A DNA stretch of 64,000 bases from a virus: IMG/VR virus record IMGVR_UViG_3300037993_001242, positions 32,001 to 96,000 of that record; one strand, 5' to 3'. Below, in pieces: positions 20,133 to 46,102 of the stretch. Both the position numbers and the translations under genes were made by a program. The notes under the pieces were generated by a model. It was given only the letters and a program-made list of their open reading frames with translations. It did no database searches and was not told the origin of the DNA. Position 1 is the stretch's first letter; every line of letters begins with the position of its first letter.

Positions 20133-21848
20133 CTAATCTTCGGCTTCGTCGGCAGCAACCTTGCGGTCGCCCCGGATGAAGTCGGCGATTACCGGCGGAG
20201 CCGACGCGTCGAAACCGACCACGTCCATGCCCCACTTGTCCTCCGGGTCGTTGACCGTGAAGTCGTTGGCGCAGGTACCCACGAACACTGACCGGGTATC
20301 CGGCACGAACTTTTCACGGTACTCCCGCAGGCGCAGAGTTGGATGCGGGCCTTGGTTGACCTCGCCGTCGGTCATAACGATCAGACCGCCGATCTTCAGA
20401 CGGTTTTGCAGTGCGTACTCGATTGCCAAGCTGATGTTGGTCGAACCGAAGTTGTTCACCTGTGCCCGACGGCACGCCGTTTCCAGCGTCATGCCCTTGC
20501 GGATGCCAAGCTCGCGGAAGGTATCCGCGAATCCGAAGATATGGCATTCCGGCTCGACGCTGGCGTGAACCAGCGACAGGGCGGCGACGGCCTCACACGA
20601 AGACAGGGGAGTTCCTGCCATCGCCGAGGACATCGAACCGGACACGTCCAGCGCGATCAACAGCGGCTTGCCGCACGGTTCAACGTTCGGGAACGCCGCG
20701 TAAAAGGCTTCGTCCAGCGCCGTCATGATTGACGGAACCGGCGTCCAGCTTAGCTTACCCTTGTCACCATGGCCTTGACCGTAAATCTTGGTCGCGATCA
20801 AGACCTGCATCGGGTGAACGCGTGACTTCTTCAGGAACGCGCCGTCCTGCAACCGCTTCTGGACGAGCTTGGTGGCTTCGCCCAGCGGCTTCAGGAGACC
20901 GAGGCTGGTCATCTTGCCAAGATTACGGATCGTCGCCGTCAACGGCATCTTCTGCAACAGGGCTTCCCAGACCGCGAGGCTGTTGAGCTTCTCGGTCGGT
21001 ACGGCCTCACGCGGCAGGTTGTGCTCGGTGATCAGCTTGACCAGCGCCTTTTCGTCGGCAGTCTTGGCTTCCTCGAACGCGCCGATGATGTCCGGCAGAT
21101 ACTTTTTGACGGAAGGATACTTCCGAATACGCGGGATGTCCGGTGCCATTGACTTCGGCAGGTTGGGAAACTTTCGGGTGACCTCGCGGGCACCCAGCGC
21201 GTCCTTGCCGCCGATGATCCAGCGGAAGACGGCCTGCTGTGCCTTGACCTCGGTGACCGGGTGGGCCACGCGAAGCACGTCACGAGCCGACCAGCCGTCG
21301 CGCTGCTGATACTTGACGACCTGCGCCGCCAAACGGTCAGCGGGCATGTCCGTGAACCAGCGGGCGATAGCGCGCCGGAAACCAGAGCCGCCGCCCCGCA
21401 TCGCCGAACAGTACTGCATGAAGTGGTACAGGTGCGTACCAATCCGGCAGACCTTCGGCAGCGCGGCATAAGCTGCCTGCCGGGCTTCCGCGTCACCGTG
21501 GGTGGCGACCAGCGCCAGTGCAAAAATGGCCGGGTCGTTCTTGTAGGCGCGTCCCTTGACGGACACATCTACAATCTCCTTGACCGTCCGCACACCGCTG
21601 GCCTTGATACACTGCAACACCGCGTCGTGGCCCTGCTTGAGCAAGTCCTTTTCGTCGATGTAATAGGTGCCGCCTTCGGTACCGAGAATCAAAAACCGCG
21701 CCAGCTTGTCCCAGATGCTGACCTTCCAGACGTACGCGCCGTCCGAGTCCTGAACCTGATTCTTGCCCGGCAACGGAGTGTATACAGAGGTCGTGCGCGA
21801 ACGCTTGGCTGACCGGGTGTCGAACTGCTTGGTGCTGATGAGTGCCAT
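20133..21848 (-). CDS. rsr: Ro60/TROVE-domain RNA-binding protein with C-terminal vWA
   Basis: LARFLILGTEGGTYY, KYQQRDGWSARDVLRVAHP, MPLTATIRNLGKMT, RVHPM, LIALDVSGSM (MIDAS), IVMTDGE, DVVGFDASAP; start MALISTK with AAGGA upstream. Confidence 0.95.
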   Translation of the reverse strand: MALISTKQFDTRSAKRSRTTSVYTPLPGKNQVQDSDGAYVWKVSIWDKLARFLILGTEGGTYYIDEKDLLKQGHDAVLQCIKASGVRTVKEIVDVSVKGRAYKNDPAIFALALVATHGDAEARQAAYAALPKVCRIGTHLYHFMQYCSAMRGGGSGFRRAIARWFTDMPADRLAAQVVKYQQRDGWSARDVLRVAHPVTEVKAQQAVFRWIIGGKDALGAREVTRKFPNLPKSMAPDIPRIRKYPSVKKYLPDIIGAFEEAKTADEKALVKLITEHNLPREAVPTEKLNSLAVWEALLQKMPLTATIRNLGKMTSLGLLKPLGEATKLVQKRLQDGAFLKKSRVHPMQVLIATKIYGQGHGDKGKLSWTPVPSIMTALDEAFYAAFPNVEPCGKPLLIALDVSGSMSSAMAGTPLSSCEAVAALSLVHASVEPECHIFGFADTFRELGIRKGMTLETACRRAQVNNFGSTNISLAIEYALQNRLKIGGLIVMTDGEVNQGPHPTLRLREYREKFVPDTRSVFVGTCANDFTVNDPEDKWGMDVVGFDASAPPVIADFIRGDRKVAADEAED

Positions 21849-21940
21849 ATCCTTGGAATGACAATCACACTCCAACTACGATGTGTTTTCGGGTTTTCAC
21901 CGTTGGCCCATGCCATGGGCCTGATTCTGTTTTTGTTGGA

Positions 21941-22380: not shown

Positions 22381-22517
22381 GCGGGCAAGGGTTTGGGTCG
22401 GAGATGGCTTTCGCCAAACCACTGCTCTGCCAATTGAGCTACCCCGGCATTTGCGCCGGAGGCTGGAATCGAACCAGCAACCAACGGTTTTATGATAACC
22501 AACCACAGTCGGCCCGC
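22381..22517 (-). ncRNA. Y RNA 1, YrlA-like with permuted tRNA module
   Basis: GCGGGCCGA...GGTTATC...T-arm GCTGGTTCGATTCCAGC, acceptor CTCCGGC/GCCGGGG closed by a loop, D-arm TAGCTCAATTGGCAGAGC...CCTTGCCCGC; ~530 nt upstream of Ro60, same strand. Confidence 0.85.
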
Positions 22518-23345: not shown

Positions 23346-23771
23346 TGGTGGAGGCGGCGAGAGTTGAACTCGCGTCTTTGACTCCGTTGCATGTTGCCAC
23401 TACACGCTTATCCCGTTTTGTACAAGCTCAGCCAGTTGGGCATCTATGTGAAAAAATCTGAGCAGGTTCGGTTGATCCAACCGTAGAAGCGCCGACATTG
23501 CTCGGCACTCACACGATCCTGCTGCATCGCTCGACCCGCCGTAGCAGGCATCCAGCGGCGAACGGTGTGGCGCTTTAGGCCACAGCAAGTTCGGCATTCA
23601 GGACGGCATCAGGGTTGGCGAAAATCGCTTCCGCCTGAGCCAGCAAGCCTGCCGGACAATCATTTGCTTCGTCAGCATTTGAGTTTTGATCCGAGTTTTT
23701 AGCGAGGCCAACGAATCATCCTCGGCGTGCAACAGCATACTTCAGTTTCAAATCGAAACCAGTACGCCCCC
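23346..23771 (-). ncRNA. ssrA: tmRNA
   Basis: 5' GGGGGCGTACTGGTTTCGA; 3' GCGAGTTCAACTCTCGCCGCCTCCACCA with G3-U70; tag frame 23575-23676 ADEANDCPAGLLAQAEAIFANPDAVLNAELAVA*. Confidence 0.93.
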
Positions 23772-23790
23772 ATTTCAAAGATCAAAAAAC

Positions 23791-23852
23791 GATGGGCAAG
23801 GTGGTGCAGGAAGGGTTGTCCAAGGATGATAACCTTCCAACTTCGGCCCATC
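23791..23852 (-). ncRNA. Y RNA 2, short (62 nt)
   Basis: GATGGGCCGA-AGTTGGAA-GGTTATC...CCTTGCCCATC. Confidence 0.75.
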
Positions 23853-23954
23853 AATTCGACCCGGCCCCGTCGTCAGTTCGTGCCGGAACGCACAAGAATG
23901 TCCATGCCCGGCTGATCAATTCCGGGCGCTGACCCAGTTGTACCTGTGCCAAAT

Positions 23955-26448: not shown

Positions 26449-26533
26449 TGGTGCCGGTGAAGGGACTCGAACCCCCAAGGCTGCGGCGTCCTAAGCGCCG
26501 TGGGTCTGCCAATTCCCCGTTAACCACACCGGC
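26449..26533 (-). tRNA. tRNA-Leu(TAG)
   Basis: Loop CTTAGGA. Confidence 0.85.
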
Positions 26534-31725: not shown

Positions 31726-31733
31726 AAATTAAA

Positions 31734-31797
31734 TACGGGCAAGGTGTCAGACTGGGATGGTTCATTTCAAGTGATAACCCAATCAATTCGGCCCGTA
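31734..31797 (-). ncRNA. Y RNA 3, short (64 nt)
   Basis: TACGGGCCGA-ATTGATTG-GGTTATC...CCTTGCCCGTA. Confidence 0.75.
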
Positions 31798-31800
31798 AAA

Positions 31801-32387: not shown

Positions 32388-32520
32388 TAACGGGCAAGGA
32401 TCGGCGTGGATGTTTTTAGCGCTCTACCGTTGAGCTATCCCGGCATTGGAGCCGGGAACAGGACTCGAACCTGTATCTCCTCATTAGCATTGAGATAACC
32501 CACAACACTTCGGCCCGTTA
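32388..32520 (-). ncRNA. Y RNA 4, YrlA-like with permuted tRNA module
   Basis: TAACGGGCCGAAGTGTTGTGGGTTATCTCAAT...T-arm ACAGGTTCGAGTCCTGT, TCCCGGC-TCCAAT-GCCGGGA, D-arm TAGCTCAACGGTAGAGC...CCTTGCCCGTTA. Confidence 0.85.
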
Positions 32521-32523
32521 AAA

Positions 32524-32611
32524 TGGCGGCGGGTAAAGGAATCCAACCTCTGCTGCTGTTACGCAGGCCACAGTTTTCGGAACTGGCACCTTAGCGCTCG
32601 GTCAACCCGCC
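32524..32611 (-). tRNA. tRNA-Ser(CGA), C33
   Basis: Loop TCCGAAA; long variable arm; T-loop TTGGATT. Confidence 0.85.
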
Positions 32612-36445: not shown

Positions 36446-36518
36446 TGGTCGCGCCGGACGGAGTTGAACACGTCATCTCGCACTTCCGGGTGCCGCTCTA
36501 ACATTAAGCTACGGCGCG
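36446..36518 (-). tRNA. Degenerate Pro-like tRNA with 6-nt anticodon loop
   Basis: CGCGCCG/CGGCGCG-A-CCA acceptor; GCAC-CCGGAA-GTGC; bulged T-stem. Confidence 0.55.
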
Positions 36519-39457: not shown

Positions 39458-39483
39458 GCCCTAAATACCGGTCTGAAAATAGA

Positions 39484-39513
39484 AGGCCGGGGGGCTTCCA
39501 CGCTCCCCGGCCT
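39484..39513 (-). terminator. Terminator after the long ncRNA
   Basis: AGGCCGGGG/CCCCGGCCT stem followed by a T-rich run on the minus strand. Confidence 0.65.
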
Positions 39514-39524
39514 AAGTTTTATAC

Positions 39525-39767
39525 CAAGGCGTTTTTGAACTTTGATCGCCAACAGCCTGCTGTCCTTAGCTTAATCCCGGCGCTTTACCGCTGAGCTACA
39601 CCGCCATAGTTTTATGGGGGCGGTGACTGGATTTGAACCAGCGACTCCGGTTTGTTAGACAACACCTGTCAGGTCACGTCTTGCTATTGTGTAACGCACT
39701 AGGTGCGCTACGGTTGAGCCTTCGGGTGATAGCCTGACATTGAACTTTAATTTTAACCATCACCTTG
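39525..39767 (-). ncRNA. ~245-nt structured RNA with circularly permuted tRNA module
   Basis: Terminal CAAGGTG/CGCCTTG; TGTCAGG/CCTGACA and TGTTGTC/GACAGCA helices; T-arm, acceptor with CCCA, and D-arm at 39577-39650; AAAGTTCAA repeated on both sides. Confidence 0.7.
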
Positions 39768-39818
39768 AGCTTGGGCGAGCGGCCCGTAAAATCAATTTAC
39801 AGGCCGCCGCACCCGAAA

Positions 39819-40013
39819 TTATGGTTTGCCCTCCAGTTGTTTCAGCCGTTCTTTATAGATTTTTTCAATCTCGCTTTCCCTTATACCCCGAAGATTGCGG
39901 CCACCGGCATTCATACACGTCGCGTGCTCTTGCGTATTCGTGGTCAGCCTCTGCGCTTTTTCCATTTCAGCACGCCGCCACACGTCCAGTCTGCGTTTTG
40001 CGCTTTCGTCCAT
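39819..40013 (-). CDS. Small hypothetical protein
   Basis: MDESAKRRLDVW...; co-transcribed with the 254-aa gene. Confidence 0.5.
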   Translation of the reverse strand: MDESAKRRLDVWRRAEMEKAQRLTTNTQEHATCMNAGGRNLRGIRESEIEKIYKERLKQLEGKP

Positions 40014-40017
40014 AAGA

Positions 40018-40782
40018 CTATTTGTTGCCACTGAACACGAAGCTCAGCAACTGCTTGCCGATCTTCTTGGTCAGGTCGACTTCTTCGTCGTTGGCCCGTG
40101 AGCGCGCCCGGCGGACGGCTCGCGTCAGGATTTCGATCCGGTCGAGCAGTTCGGCTTTTTCCGCCGGGGTGATCAACGAAGACCACTCCTTTTCCTCAAC
40201 CTTGCCTACCGGCACATCGATGGCCAGCAACTGAGTCTGAGCCGGATGTTCCTTGGTGGCGTCGTACAGCACAATCGGCTTGGACTGTTTCTGCGTGCGA
40301 ATCTTGATCACTTCGCGTGCTTTGTAAACACCAGCGCCGCGCTGCGCATCCGCCACGAAACCCTTGGCCGGATCGAGCGTCGGGATGACCGCGATCAACT
40401 GCTGGATTTCCGTGCAGCGCTTTTCAAGCTCCAGCAGCGCCGTCGCCGGGACATCCTTAATTAGCACGGTACCCGCGTCGTCATCAAGCACGATGTCGGC
40501 CTTCGCCCGTGTATTGGCGTCAGCCACCTGATACGAGGCGTCGAGTGCCTTGGTCAGATGACCCTGAATCCATGTCAGTTCCTTGCCGACCGAGGTCTGC
40601 AAGAAGGACTGGGCTTCGGTCTGCGGCTCGGCTTTTTCCGCGTCGGGTTTGAAGACGACGTGCTTTTCCTCGAAAAGATGCCGCTTCTTTTCAAAGGTGT
40701 TGGCCTGATCGGTGCGGCACTTTTCGGCCTGCTGTTTCAGGCTGGTTTCAACTGCCAAAAGTTCATGTAGTTTGGTTGACAT
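40018..40782 (-). CDS. Helical/coiled-coil hypothetical protein
   Basis: 254 aa, MSTKLHELLAVE...ANTRAKADIV...PATALLELEK...AVRRARSRAND; strong sigma70-like promoter upstream. Confidence 0.8.
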   Translation of the reverse strand: MSTKLHELLAVETSLKQQAEKCRTDQANTFEKKRHLFEEKHVVFKPDAEKAEPQTEAQSFLQTSVGKELTWIQGHLTKALDASYQVADANTRAKADIVLDDDAGTVLIKDVPATALLELEKRCTEIQQLIAVIPTLDPAKGFVADAQRGAGVYKAREVIKIRTQKQSKPIVLYDATKEHPAQTQLLAIDVPVGKVEEKEWSSLITPAEKAELLDRIEILTRAVRRARSRANDEEVDLTKKIGKQLLSFVFSGNK

Positions 40783-40791
40783 AGTGGTTGG

Positions 40792-40819
40792 AGTGTATAC
40801 GCGTTAGATTTCTTGTCAA
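40792..40819 (-). promoter_or_regulatory. sigma70-like promoter TTGACA-N16-TACACT
   Basis: Upstream of the 254-aa gene; the same architecture occurs near 13520, 36185, 54565 and 57705. Confidence 0.7.
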
Positions 40820-41555: not shown

Positions 41556-41631
41556 TGGTGGAATCGACCGGGAACGATCCGGCAACTTTCGGCTTGCAAA
41601 ACCGACGCTCTACCGATTGAGCTACGACCCC
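41556..41631 (-). tRNA. tRNA-Ala(TGC)
   Basis: G3-U70; loop TTTGCAA; T-loop ATCGTTC. Confidence 0.9.
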
Positions 41632-42071
41632 TTTGAAATTGATGCGCGATACGCTTTGAGTTTGACCCGCCGGTCATCGTCAAACGGAATTTCACCGCCC
41701 AAATGGACGCCTTCGTAAATGGCCTCCCGGAGCAGCAGTTCAACGTTCAGCGATTCCATGGCTTCGAGCAGCAGGTTGTCGCTTTGGTCTCTGGTCAACG
41801 TCGCCAACGTCCACGTACCGTCGCTGTTCAAAACTTGCAGGACGTTGCGGTAAGCGCCGTCGTGCAGGACGGTTCCCATCCAATAGGTGCCGAAAGGCGG
41901 AATGAGATTCCAGATCGCTTTGGGCGTGCTGGCCCCATCCGACGGGGAACCGGTCGGCATCATGTATTGGACGCCGTTTTTGGCCACGTACACGAGGTCT
42001 TCCAGCAGAACGATATGCCTGCCGTCACTGGTTTCGTTGGCAATCGTCGGCTTTTTGAATCCATATTCCAT
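41622..42071 (-). CDS. DUF1353-like protein
   Basis: LLEDLVY, SDGASTP, GTVLHDGAY, SDNLLLEAM; GTAGTTA upstream. Confidence 0.8.
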   Translation of the reverse strand: MEYGFKKPTIANETSDGRHIVLLEDLVYVAKNGVQYMMPTGSPSDGASTPKAIWNLIPPFGTYWMGTVLHDGAYRNVLQVLNSDGTWTLATLTRDQSDNLLLEAMESLNVELLLREAIYEGVHLGGEIPFDDDRRVKLKAYRASISKGS

Positions 42072-42308: not shown

Positions 42309-42623
42309 TTAAACAAAATCGTTTTCGGTACGAAAGACTGCGTAATTCTCGATGACGCTGGATTCGAGTTTGGGCTGGTTCGTACCGTAAAAAGCCATGT
42401 TGCGTTTGGGATCGGCGAATTCGTCGTAAACTTGTCGATTGGCAACGGCAATCTTAAAAGCTTCCTCGCGGTCGACAAATCGGCCCGTGTCCGTCACGTA
42501 ACCGTCCTCGGTTTTGGCTTCCGCCATACCGGGTAAATCAATGAATTTCCTCGACGCTTCAAAATGGGTTGATCCGATGTAAATGGTGCGCCCTATGCGC
42601 ACCGCCGCTGCCGCGATCTTCAT
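42309..42623 (-). CDS. Hypothetical phage protein
   Basis: STH...DGYVTDTGRFVDREEAFKIA. Confidence 0.7.
   Translation of the reverse strand: MKIAAAAVRIGRTIYIGSTHFEASRKFIDLPGMAEAKTEDGYVTDTGRFVDREEAFKIAVANRQVYDEFADPKRNMAFYGTNQPKLESSVIENYAVFRTENDFV

Positions 42624-43939: not shown

Positions 43940-46102
<2,163 letters not shown>

What the first reader, a model, noticed from the sequence alone, without database searches (positions are those of the whole stretch)
39525..39787. Long RNA with a circularly permuted, CCA-bearing tRNA module downstream of a coiled-coil gene
Seen in sequence (minus strand): T-arm GCTGGTTCAAATCCAGT, acceptor 3' strand CACCGCC followed by C-CCA, a 9-nt linker, acceptor 5' strand GGCGGTG, and D-arm TAGCTCAGCGGTAAAGC. 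The anticodon arm is replaced by a CCGG/CCGG helix that continues into a multi-helix scaffold. An identical 9-mer AAAGTTCAA (39740-39748 and 39535-39543) sits on both sides of the terminal internal loop. It lacks the CCTTGCCC Y end, although ACGGGCCGC lies just upstream. It sits after the 254-aa helical gene under a strong sigma70-like promoter and ends at a terminator. Inference: a distinct ncRNA class, possibly processed by RNase P into a two-piece RNA with a chargeable 3' CCA, with the 254-aa protein as partner binding the duplicated 9-mer.
Basis: partly seen in the sequence, partly recalled or inferred. Interest (0 to 1): 0.8.

Follow-up and report, generated by a model that had tools for sequence, protein, structure and literature searches.

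The report
Phage tRNA-mimic RNA paired with DUF7873
A peat-soil phage encodes a folded RNA of about 340 bases whose core is a tRNA with its two halves in swapped order, no anticodon loop and a built-in CCA; the same RNA follows the same unknown-function gene (DUF7873) in many unrelated phages, which points to an undescribed RNA-protein module.

Summary
Window 39817-39476 (minus strand) is a structured RNA. Its core (39650-39577) is a permuted tRNA cloverleaf: T-arm, 7-bp acceptor stem, C-CCA, 9-nt linker, D-arm and a 4-bp anticodon-stem remnant.

- **Conservation:** The same RNA lies downstream of all 30 DUF7873 homologues fetched from metagenomes. It also follows 9 of 10 cultured-phage homologues tested (Rhizobium, Klebsiella, Vibrio, Ralstonia, Rhodococcus, Gordonia, Arthrobacter and Pseudanabaena phages).
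- **Covariation:** All 20 pairs of the cloverleaf show compensatory changes, and 99% of cells are paired. CCA is invariant in 24 of 24 aligned relatives.
- **Family:** The module has YrlA (Y RNA-like) topology but scores only 27.4 bits against Rfam's threshold of 69. It lacks the Ro60-binding helix and occurs mostly in phages without Ro60.
- **New features:** A covarying 5' helix encloses an array of six-base repeats (A-R-G-N-U-Y). DUF7873 is predicted to form a homodimer.
- **Not shown:** RNase P cleavage at the linker has a precedent in M. smegmatis YrlA but is untested here. Aminoacylation has no support, and protein-RNA binding is not shown.
- **Prior record:** No Rfam family or searchable paper covers this RNA. 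This scan has noted the same DUF7873-RNA pair before on other DNA (66 notes in at least 51 genomes).

The parts
40792..40819 (-). sigma-70-like promoter ahead of the DUF7873 gene (TTGACA, 16 nt, TACACT)
   Evidence: Consensus scan, 10 of 12 matches. Function is not tested.
40018..40782 (-). 254-aa DUF7873 gene, the conserved protein partner
   Evidence: Pfam PF25283, E 4.6e-64, 216.9 bits against a cut-off of 27. Single copy in the 199-kb virus record. It is the only ORF family shared by 27 loci. AF2 model has pLDDT 88.6. Homodimer model scores 0.76 against a best control of 0.01.
39819..40031 (-). 70-aa ORF inserted between the gene and the RNA, specific to this window
   Evidence: No homologue in any fetched locus. 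In L003 the DUF7873 stop codon is followed directly by TTTCGGGTG.
39810..39817 (-). P1 helix, 5' strand UUCGGGUG
   Evidence: Pairs with 39728-39721. Compensatory variants include UUGGGUG/CACCCAA, UUUGGGUA/UACCCAAA, UUCGGGA/UCCCGAA, UUCGGGG/CCCCGAA, UCUAGU/ACUAGA and CGCUGG/CCAGCG.
39776..39809 (-).
   Evidence: A hairpin is present at this place in most relatives, but its sequence and length vary.
39731..39772 (-). array of seven six-base repeats (AAGCUC AAGGUG AUGGUU AAAAUU AAAGUU CAAUGU CAGGCU), consensus A-R-G-N-U-Y
   Evidence: Motif RYUYAR occurs 85 times against 13.7 expected in 24 RNAs, with spacings in multiples of 6. Autocorrelation peaks at lag 6 (0.352) and lag 12 (0.328), against 0.19-0.29 at the other lags from 2 to 15 (lag 1: 0.319).
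39721..39728 (-). P1 helix, 3' strand CACCCGAA
   Evidence: See the P1 5' strand.
39714..39720 (-). conserved GGCUCAA directly after P1
   Evidence: AGGCUCAA or a near variant follows P1 in nearly all relatives.
39691..39711 (-). extra hairpin, lineage-specific
   Evidence: Present in the window and L003 only.
39656..39688 (-). 5' strand of the long rod (three helices) that extends the anticodon stem
   Evidence: Pairs with 39566-39520. An equivalent two- to three-helix rod forms in all 24 relatives (duplex energies -17 to -39 kcal/mol, z -1.1 to -4.6). Covariation is not scored because the flanks align poorly.
39577..39650 (-). permuted tRNA-like module: anticodon-stem 3' strand, variable loop, T-arm, acceptor 3' strand, C-CCA, linker, acceptor 5' strand, U8, D-arm, anticodon-stem 5' strand
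   Evidence: RNAalifold consensus. All 20 pairs show compensatory changes and 99% of cells pair. U8, A14, G19, U54, C56 and A58 are invariant, and G18 and U55 are each kept in 23 of 24. Model R1 scores 99.4 bits here. Rfam YrlA scores 27.4 bits.
39615..39618 (-). discriminator C plus encoded CCA
   Evidence: CCA is invariant in 24 of 24. Discriminator is C 16, U 4, G 4, A 0.
39606..39614 (-). linker UAAAACUAU, the proposed RNase P leader (inferred cut between 39606 and 39605)
   Evidence: Linker length is 3-27 nt in the alignment and about 115 nt in L019. Linkers are 76% A+U, with U at -1 in 19 of 24 and A at -2 in 20 of 24.
39567..39576 (-). conserved junction GAUUAAGCUA (consensus G-A-U-Y-A-R-R), facing AAA on the 5' side (39651-39653)
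   Evidence: Column counts. It reads as one or two more copies of the six-base motif.
39520..39566 (-). 3' strand of the rod, with an unpaired conserved loop AAAGUUCAAAA (39543-39533; ARAGCUAAAAAG in relatives)
39476..39512 (-). terminator hairpin (39512-39485) with a conserved six-base loop GUGGAA (G-Y/A-G-R-W-A in relatives), then UUCUAUUUU
   Evidence: The stem covaries. The scan flags the hairpin on the + strand. In several relatives a true tRNA gene lies between the RNA and this hairpin.

Best explanation
This is the RNA half of a conserved phage gene-RNA module, DUF7873 plus a tRNA-mimic RNA. It is built on the plan of YrlA Y RNAs but is independent of Ro60.

**Shown**
- An RNA of about 340 nt follows the DUF7873 gene.
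- It has a covarying outer helix (P1) that encloses an array of six-base repeats.
- It has a long base-paired rod.
- At the tip of the rod is an L-shaped tRNA look-alike. It has an intact elbow, a 7-bp acceptor stem and an encoded N-CCA, but no anticodon loop.

**Inferred**
- The RNA is co-transcribed with DUF7873 from the upstream promoter and ends at the terminator hairpin.
- RNase P cuts after the A/U-rich linker, and 3' exonucleases trim back to CCA.
- This gives a two-piece RNA held together by the acceptor stem and the rod, with a free tRNA-like acceptor end.
- A DUF7873 dimer (or several) binds the single-stranded six-base repeats.
- The particle then presents a non-decoding, probably uncharged tRNA mimic. 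It would act either as a tether for tRNA-handling enzymes or as a decoy for host factors that attack tRNA ends, serving the phage's own tRNA set.
For: **Linkage**
- All 30 fetched DUF7873 loci carry the module downstream.
- Each of 22 viral records has exactly one hit of 70 bits or more, next to DUF7873. The exception is L019, whose linker is about 115 nt.
- Nine of 10 cultured phages not used for the model have hits of 33-57 bits in the unannotated gap after DUF7873.
- No other flanking gene is conserved.

**Structure**
- All 20 pairs are compensatory, including the D-arm and anticodon stem, which played no part in picking the loci.
- P1 covaries.
- Tertiary-contact bases are invariant.

**Processing**
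- M. smegmatis YrlA, with a 7-bp acceptor stem, is cut by RNase P and carries CCA in vivo (PMC4201824).
- Here there is a 7-bp stem, U at -1 in 19 of 24, and a linker free to vary from 3 to about 115 nt.
- The locus sits in tRNA gene clusters.

**Protein**
- The six-base periodicity is documented.
- The DUF7873 homodimer model scores ipSAE 0.76, with a best control of 0.01.
  - Calibration: that mark was reached by 20 of 30 proteins solved as pairs of one chain and 1 of 23 solved as single chains.
  - Caveat: these counts hold only roughly because my own alignment was used.
  - Agreement: the runs agree in at least 99% of contacts, and partner pLDDT is at least 90.

**Ro60 independence**
- TROVE is found in 3 of 21 relatives' records, in 1 of the 9 that are at least 90% complete, and in 1 of 4 cultured genomes.
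Against: - No transcript, end-mapping or binding datum exists.
- The T-arm and acceptor stem were part of the pattern I used to pick loci, so their pairing is partly selected.
- The RNA starts 2-25 nt after the stop codon in most relatives. The linkage could therefore reflect a cis-acting 3' UTR rather than a trans partnership.
- CCA is not universal in distant members: CCU in L029 and phiRSL1, and CUA or none in the second modules of actinophages.
- DUF7873 has no recognisable RNA-binding fold.
- What binds the six-base repeats is unknown.
- An earlier check in this scan (e1-2703945) reports that a word-pattern test found the pairing in only 17.8% of DUF7873 genes. I did not repeat that test.
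Confidence: 0.6

Rival explanations
1. It is simply a third YrlA-type Y RNA of this phage that works with the phage's own Ro60 (Rsr), like the Y RNAs at 22392-22505 and 32388-32517.
For: Rfam YrlA is the best hit (27.4 bits, E 0.001 locally). A TROVE gene lies at 20133-21875. The module topology is the same, and my model also scores the two YrlA-like RNAs. In the relatives that have TROVE, it lies within about 0-6 kb of DUF7873.
Against: The score is far below the gathering score of 69. The 5' and 3' ends do not form the bulged-C helix GGGC(C)GA/UUGCCC that both other copies show. The RNA is conserved in complete phage genomes without TROVE: 8 of the 9 records at least 90% complete, plus 3 cultured genomes.
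Confidence: 0.1
2. It is a cis-acting 3' UTR of the DUF7873 mRNA. A tRNA-like end would stabilise or autoregulate the message without forming a separate particle, in the manner of plant-virus 3' tRNA-like structures.
For: The RNA begins 2-25 nt after the stop codon, with no room for its own promoter. It ends at a terminator.
Against: An ORF (this window, L019) or a tRNA gene (L029) can sit between the gene and the RNA without loss of the RNA. The size and the many conserved single-stranded motifs exceed what a stability element needs.
Confidence: 0.15
3. It is a permuted gene for a working translation RNA. Either it matures into a decoding tRNA after end-joining, as in red-alga permuted tRNA genes, or it is a two-piece tmRNA that tags proteins.
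For: The order is permuted with an encoded CCA. The six-base array could be read as codons.
Against: - No anticodon stem-loop can form, because the anticodon stem runs into a 30-bp rod.
- There is no G3:U70 for alanine charging.
- There is no conserved reading frame or stop codon.
- Conservation has period 6, not 3.
- ARAGORN and Rfam tmRNA do not call it, and the phage already has a standard tmRNA at 23346-23771.
Confidence: 0.04
4. It is a chance juxtaposition or decayed remnant of two neighbouring tRNA genes. This is the known 'dimeric tRNA' false positive of YrlA searches.
For: It lies in a 39-tRNA array, and adjacent tRNA pairs do give model hits of 28.5 bits or less.
Against: The two acceptor strands are perfectly complementary to each other in 28 of the 30 loci (L019 pairs 6 of 7; L029 pairs fully but has CCU in place of CCA) and covary. 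The score gap is wide: 70-99 bits against 28.5 or less. The RNA is conserved across phages of Proteobacteria, Actinobacteria and Cyanobacteria.
Confidence: 0.01

Closest known systems
YrlA (Y RNA-like A, Rfam RF02553), especially the Mycobacterium smegmatis form (Chen et al. 2014, PMC4201824)
   Same: The module order is T-arm, closed acceptor stem, D-arm, with the anticodon stem continuing into a stem made by distant parts of the RNA. The tRNA elbow is intact. Both occur in phages near tRNA genes. The M. smegmatis form has a 7-bp acceptor stem, is cut by RNase P and ends in CCA in vivo.
   Different: There is no Ro60-binding helix or GNCGAA motif. It occurs mostly in phages without Ro60. It is partnered with DUF7873. 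CCA is encoded rather than added. The RNA is about three times longer, with a P1 domain and a six-base repeat array. It scores 27.4 bits against a threshold of 69.
Two-piece (permuted) tmRNA of alpha-proteobacteria and cyanobacteria
   Same: The gene is permuted, with T-arm, acceptor 3' strand and CCA upstream of the acceptor 5' strand. An intervening segment is presumably excised. The two pieces are held together by pairing.
   Different: There is no G3:U70, no tag reading frame, no pseudoknot set and a true D-arm. ARAGORN and Rfam tmRNA do not detect it.
Circularly permuted tRNA genes (Cyanidioschyzon merolae; from my own knowledge)
   Same: The 3' half of the cloverleaf is encoded upstream of the 5' half.
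   Different: Those mature into normal decoding tRNAs. Here no anticodon loop exists.
3' tRNA-like structures of plant RNA viruses (from my own knowledge)
   Same: A viral RNA presents a tRNA-shaped CCA end downstream of a coding region.
   Different: Those are continuous 3' ends of RNA genomes and are aminoacylated. Here the host is a DNA phage, the order is permuted and no identity elements are conserved.

Membership tests
YrlA / bacterial Y RNA (RF02553) | Reaches the Rfam gathering score (69 bits) | tested here: not met
   27.4 bits.
YrlA / bacterial Y RNA (RF02553) | tRNA-like domain in the order T-arm, closed acceptor stem, D-arm | tested here: met
YrlA / bacterial Y RNA (RF02553) | Terminal helix of the 5' and 3' ends carrying the Ro60 site (bulged-C helix, GNCGAA-type 5' strand) | tested here: not met
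   The phage's other copies have GGGCCGA...CCUUGCCC. This RNA's ends form P1 (UUCGGGUG/CACCCGAA) and a rod without that motif.
YrlA / bacterial Y RNA (RF02553) | Co-occurs with a Ro60/TROVE gene | tested here: not met
   TROVE is in 3 of 21 relatives' records, in 1 of the 9 at least 90% complete, and in 1 of 4 cultured genomes. It is present in this phage.
YrlA / bacterial Y RNA (RF02553) | Bound by Ro60/Rsr | not testable with these tools
   Needs immunoprecipitation.
RNase P substrate of the M. smegmatis YrlA type | 7-bp acceptor stem stacked on a 5-bp T stem, with a single-stranded leader ending in U at -1 | tested here: met
   7-bp stem in all 24, and U at -1 in 19 of 24.
RNase P substrate of the M. 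smegmatis YrlA type | Actual cleavage and a mature CCA 3' end | not testable with these tools
   No RNA data.
Canonical tRNA (RF00005) | Acceptor 5' strand first, plus an anticodon stem-loop | tested here: not met
   No ARAGORN call. Rfam tRNA scores 16 bits against 29.
Two-piece tmRNA | G3:U70, a tag reading frame with a stop codon, detection by ARAGORN or RF00023 | tested here: not met
   The 3:70 pair is CG 15, GC 6, AU 2, UA 1. No tmRNA call is made here.
DUF7873 (PF25283), for the 254-aa protein | Full-length match above the curated cut-off | tested here: met
   216.9 bits against 27, covering positions 2-242 of 244.

The most novel reading that the evidence does not exclude
This is a Ro60-independent phage ribonucleoprotein. 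Dimers of DUF7873 line up on a track of six-base repeats. They present an RNase P-processed, CCA-ended but non-chargeable tRNA acceptor mimic. The particle would act as a decoy or sponge for host defences that attack tRNA acceptor ends, or as a tether for tRNA-processing enzymes, and so protect the phage's own tRNA set.
Probability: 0.25. Interest if true: 0.85.

Novelty: new variant of a known kind. Interest (0 to 1): 0.7.

Why it matters
- Y RNA-like tRNA mimics are so far defined by Ro60. This RNA shows the same mimic reused with a different, wholly uncharacterised partner.
- It occurs in phages of Proteobacteria, Actinobacteria and Cyanobacteria, always in or beside their tRNA gene clusters.
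- It would give DUF7873 (1,632 homologues at E 0.001 or better in one search) its first functional handle.
- It would add a large structured RNA to the short list of conserved phage non-coding RNAs.
- The long-open question of what the tRNA-like domain of Y-like RNAs is for becomes testable in cultured phages of Klebsiella, Vibrio, Rhizobium and Gordonia.

Tried and rejected
**Searches that gave nothing useful**
- The search for related loci with the single protein found no relative. An alignment was needed.
- Fold searches of the DUF7873 model gave nothing informative.
  - Foldseek against PDB gave no match at E 0.001 or better.
  - VIA-align wide gave only helical-bundle rows at Z 9 or less.
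  - The atlas returned only DUF7873 itself.
- The feature search of the protein atlas gave only unnamed clusters at 0.82.
- PHROGs and PADLOC gave no hit.
- There is no paper on DUF7873.
I could not read it.
- Sequencing runs: no RNA holder is listed.
- RtcB and a CCA-adding enzyme were not found in this virus record.
- DUF7873 was found in 1 of 301 genomes of the phylum of the one MAG that carries it.

**Ideas considered and dropped**
- The junction A-U-Y-A-R-R as a leucine anticodon remnant. It reads better as further copies of the six-base motif.
- A k-turn at the junction. There are no tandem G-A pairs.
- GGUGAU/AUCACC as an alternative to P1. It is absent in the UUGGG subgroup.
- ACGGGCCGC as half of a Ro site. 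It lies in a variable hairpin.
- The 146-aa downstream gene as a third partner. It is present only in L003 and L004.
- The full-length RNAalifold run did not recover the rod helices, because the flanks align poorly.

Full report
**Setting.** The window is bases 32001-96000 of a 199-kb IMG/VR virus record. DNA runs that hold it come from peat and wetland metagenomes. The window holds 39 tRNA genes and a tmRNA, all on the minus strand. It also holds a Ro60/TROVE gene at 20133-21875. The finding lies in this array, after a 254-aa gene (40018-40782) that is a full-length member of Pfam DUF7873.

Read on the minus strand, the parts are:
- T-arm, 39642-39626
- acceptor 3' strand CACCGCC
- discriminator C and CCA, 39618-39615
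- a 9-nt linker
- acceptor 5' strand GGCGGUG
- U8 and the D-arm
- a CCGG that pairs with the CCGG just upstream of the T-arm

ARAGORN calls no tRNA here. The only notable Rfam match is YrlA at 27.4 bits, against a gathering score of 69. The same search finds two better sub-threshold YrlA matches, at 22392-22505 and 32388-32517. Both have the Ro60-type ends GGGCCGA...CCUUGCCC, which the finding lacks.

**Comparative test.**
- DUF7873 has 1,632 homologues at E 0.001 or better.
- I fetched 30 loci: four via exact-protein look-up, 24 viral contigs and one MAG contig via an alignment, plus one duplicate.
- A pattern scan found the permuted module within 650 nt downstream in 28 of them.
- The other two also have it. 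L029 has CCU in place of CCA. L019 has a linker of about 115 nt.

On 24 distinct sequences, RNAalifold returns the permuted cloverleaf. Counting pairs gives:
- 99% of cells paired
- 20 of 20 pairs with compensatory changes
- covariation 0.865, against 0.217 in shuffles and 0.17 or less when partners are slid

A caveat applies. The T-arm and acceptor stem were part of my selection pattern. The D-arm and anticodon stem were not, and both pair in 97.9% of cells with changes on both sides.

Further column counts:
- CCA is invariant in 24 of 24.
- U8, A14, G19, U54, C56 and A58 are invariant; G18 and U55 are each kept in 23 of 24.
- The discriminator is C 16, U 4, G 4 and never A.
- The base before the acceptor 5' strand is U in 19 of 24.
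- The linker is 76% A+U.

**The RNA is larger than the reported span.**
- It starts at UUCGGGUG (39817-39810), which pairs with CACCCGAA (39728-39721). This helix covaries in at least six ways.
- Inside it lie a variable hairpin and a run of six-base repeats (39772-39731).
- Across relatives the motif RYUYAR occurs 85 times against 13.7 expected, with spacings in multiples of six. Autocorrelation peaks at lags 6 and 12.
Their exact identity is not conserved.
- The flanks of the tRNA module pair as a rod of two to three helices in all 24 sequences. A conserved unpaired 3' motif, ARAGCUAAAAAG, interrupts the rod.
- The unit ends at a covarying hairpin with a conserved six-base loop and a U tract.

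**Linkage to DUF7873.**
- DUF7873 is the only ORF family shared by the loci.
- A covariance model of the module (R1) gives exactly one hit of 70 bits or more per viral record, next to DUF7873. It scores the phage's two YrlA-like RNAs at 54.8 and 42.4 bits, and adjacent tRNA pairs at 28.5 bits or less.
- Seventy-five cultured-phage records encode DUF7873 at about 28-37% identity.
- I tested ten of these, none used for the model. Nine have hits of 33-57 bits in the unannotated gap after the gene.
  - These are Rhizobium RHph_Y65, Klebsiella FBKp24, Rhodococcus NiceHouse, Vibrio D505, Gordonia Keelan and Phendrix, Arthrobacter Racecar, Ralstonia phiRSL1 and Pseudanabaena PA-SR01.
  - Several carry two modules in tandem.
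- The tenth, a Microcoleus phage, has a HEARO RNA there instead.
- No Rfam family reaches threshold on this RNA in any of 14 loci.

**Relation to Ro60.** TROVE is present in this phage. Among relatives it is in only 3 of 21 records, in 1 of the 9 that are at least 90% complete, and in 1 of 4 cultured genomes. Where present it lies close to DUF7873. The RNA therefore does not depend on Ro60, though both belong to the same tRNA-centred neighbourhood.

**Mechanism.**
- Chen et al. (PMC4201824) showed that M. smegmatis YrlA is cut by RNase P and carries CCA in vivo. That RNA was the only one they tested with a 7-bp acceptor stem.
- The present RNA has the same stem, a preferred U at -1, and a linker free to vary from 3 to about 115 nt. 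I therefore think a two-piece RNA with a CCA end is likely, but it is not shown.
- Charging is unlikely. There is no G3:U70, and no conserved identity set exists.
- DUF7873 folds confidently (pLDDT 88.6) into helices plus long beta hairpins.
- A homodimer model scores 0.76 against a best control of 0.01.
  - That mark was reached by 20 of 30 proteins solved as pairs of one chain and 1 of 23 solved as single chains.
  - The counts are only rough because my own alignment was used.
  - The runs agree in at least 99% of contacts, and partner pLDDT is at least 90.
- The idea that the dimer reads the repeat array is inference.

**Prior knowledge.**
- I found no paper describing this RNA or DUF7873.
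- A 2023 catalogue of about 10,000 candidate viral RNAs (PMC10690425) may contain it unnamed.
- This scan has noted the same pair before on other DNA: 66 notes in at least 51 genomes. My results agree with those reports, including the six-base track, which I found before reading them.

Noticed in passing
window 20133-21875 (-), 22392-22505 (-), 32388-32517 (-): A phage Ro60/TROVE gene with two YrlA-like RNAs below the Rfam threshold (39.9 and 35.9 bits). Both have Ro-type ends GGGCCGA...CCUUGCCC. The second closes its 7-bp acceptor stem with U-CCA-AU, so it too keeps an encoded CCA.
   Followed up: partly
window 23789-23855 (-) and 31732-31800 (-): Sub-threshold Rfam matches (34 and 28.7 bits) to the nematode sRNA family ceN72-3_ceN74-2. 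These nematode RNAs are, from my own knowledge, stem-bulge RNAs related to Y RNAs.
   Followed up: no
window 23346-23771 (-): A standard one-piece tmRNA (113.5 bits) with an unusually long 33-residue tag predicted by ARAGORN.
   Followed up: no
window 32527-32611, 36449-36518, 26452-26533 (-): tRNA matches above the Rfam threshold that ARAGORN did not call. ARAGORN's 68-nt 'tRNA-Ser' at 32447-32514 overlaps the second YrlA-like RNA and is probably a miscall.
   Followed up: no
L033 3512-3591 (Klebsiella phage vB_KpM_FBKp24, MW394391.1): The record annotates a 'tRNA-Sup-TTA' that overlaps the T-arm, acceptor strand and CCA of the second permuted module. This is probably a misannotation of the tRNA mimic.
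   Followed up: partly
L033, L034, L036, L037, L041: Klebsiella and actinobacterial phages carry two permuted modules in tandem after DUF7873. In NiceHouse and Racecar the first has A-CCA and the second lacks CCA.
   Followed up: partly
L040 2327-2536 (Microcoleus phage My-WqHQDG): A HEARO RNA (129 bits), followed by a large ORF, sits directly after DUF7873 where the tRNA mimic would be expected. It may be a mobile-element insertion.
   Followed up: no
G004:C1:42174-42606 (viral record behind L010): Two further YrlA-like hits (54.4 and 42.8 bits with R1) in a complete 209-kb phage record where no TROVE gene was found.
   Followed up: no
L013, L015, L017, L018, L021, L024, L028: A true tRNA gene lies between the tRNA-mimic RNA and the conserved terminator hairpin. 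The hairpin therefore closes a shared transcription unit. Its six-base loop (GUGGAA, GUGAUA, GAGGUA, GCGGUA) is conserved beyond what termination needs.
   Followed up: no
window 43940-46084 (-), 42309-42623 (-), 41622-42071 (-): An NAD-dependent DNA ligase, a 104-aa ORF whose counterparts in L003 and L004 are annotated T4_Y16D, and a DUF1353 gene lie upstream. They are syntenic only with the nearest relatives.
   Followed up: partly
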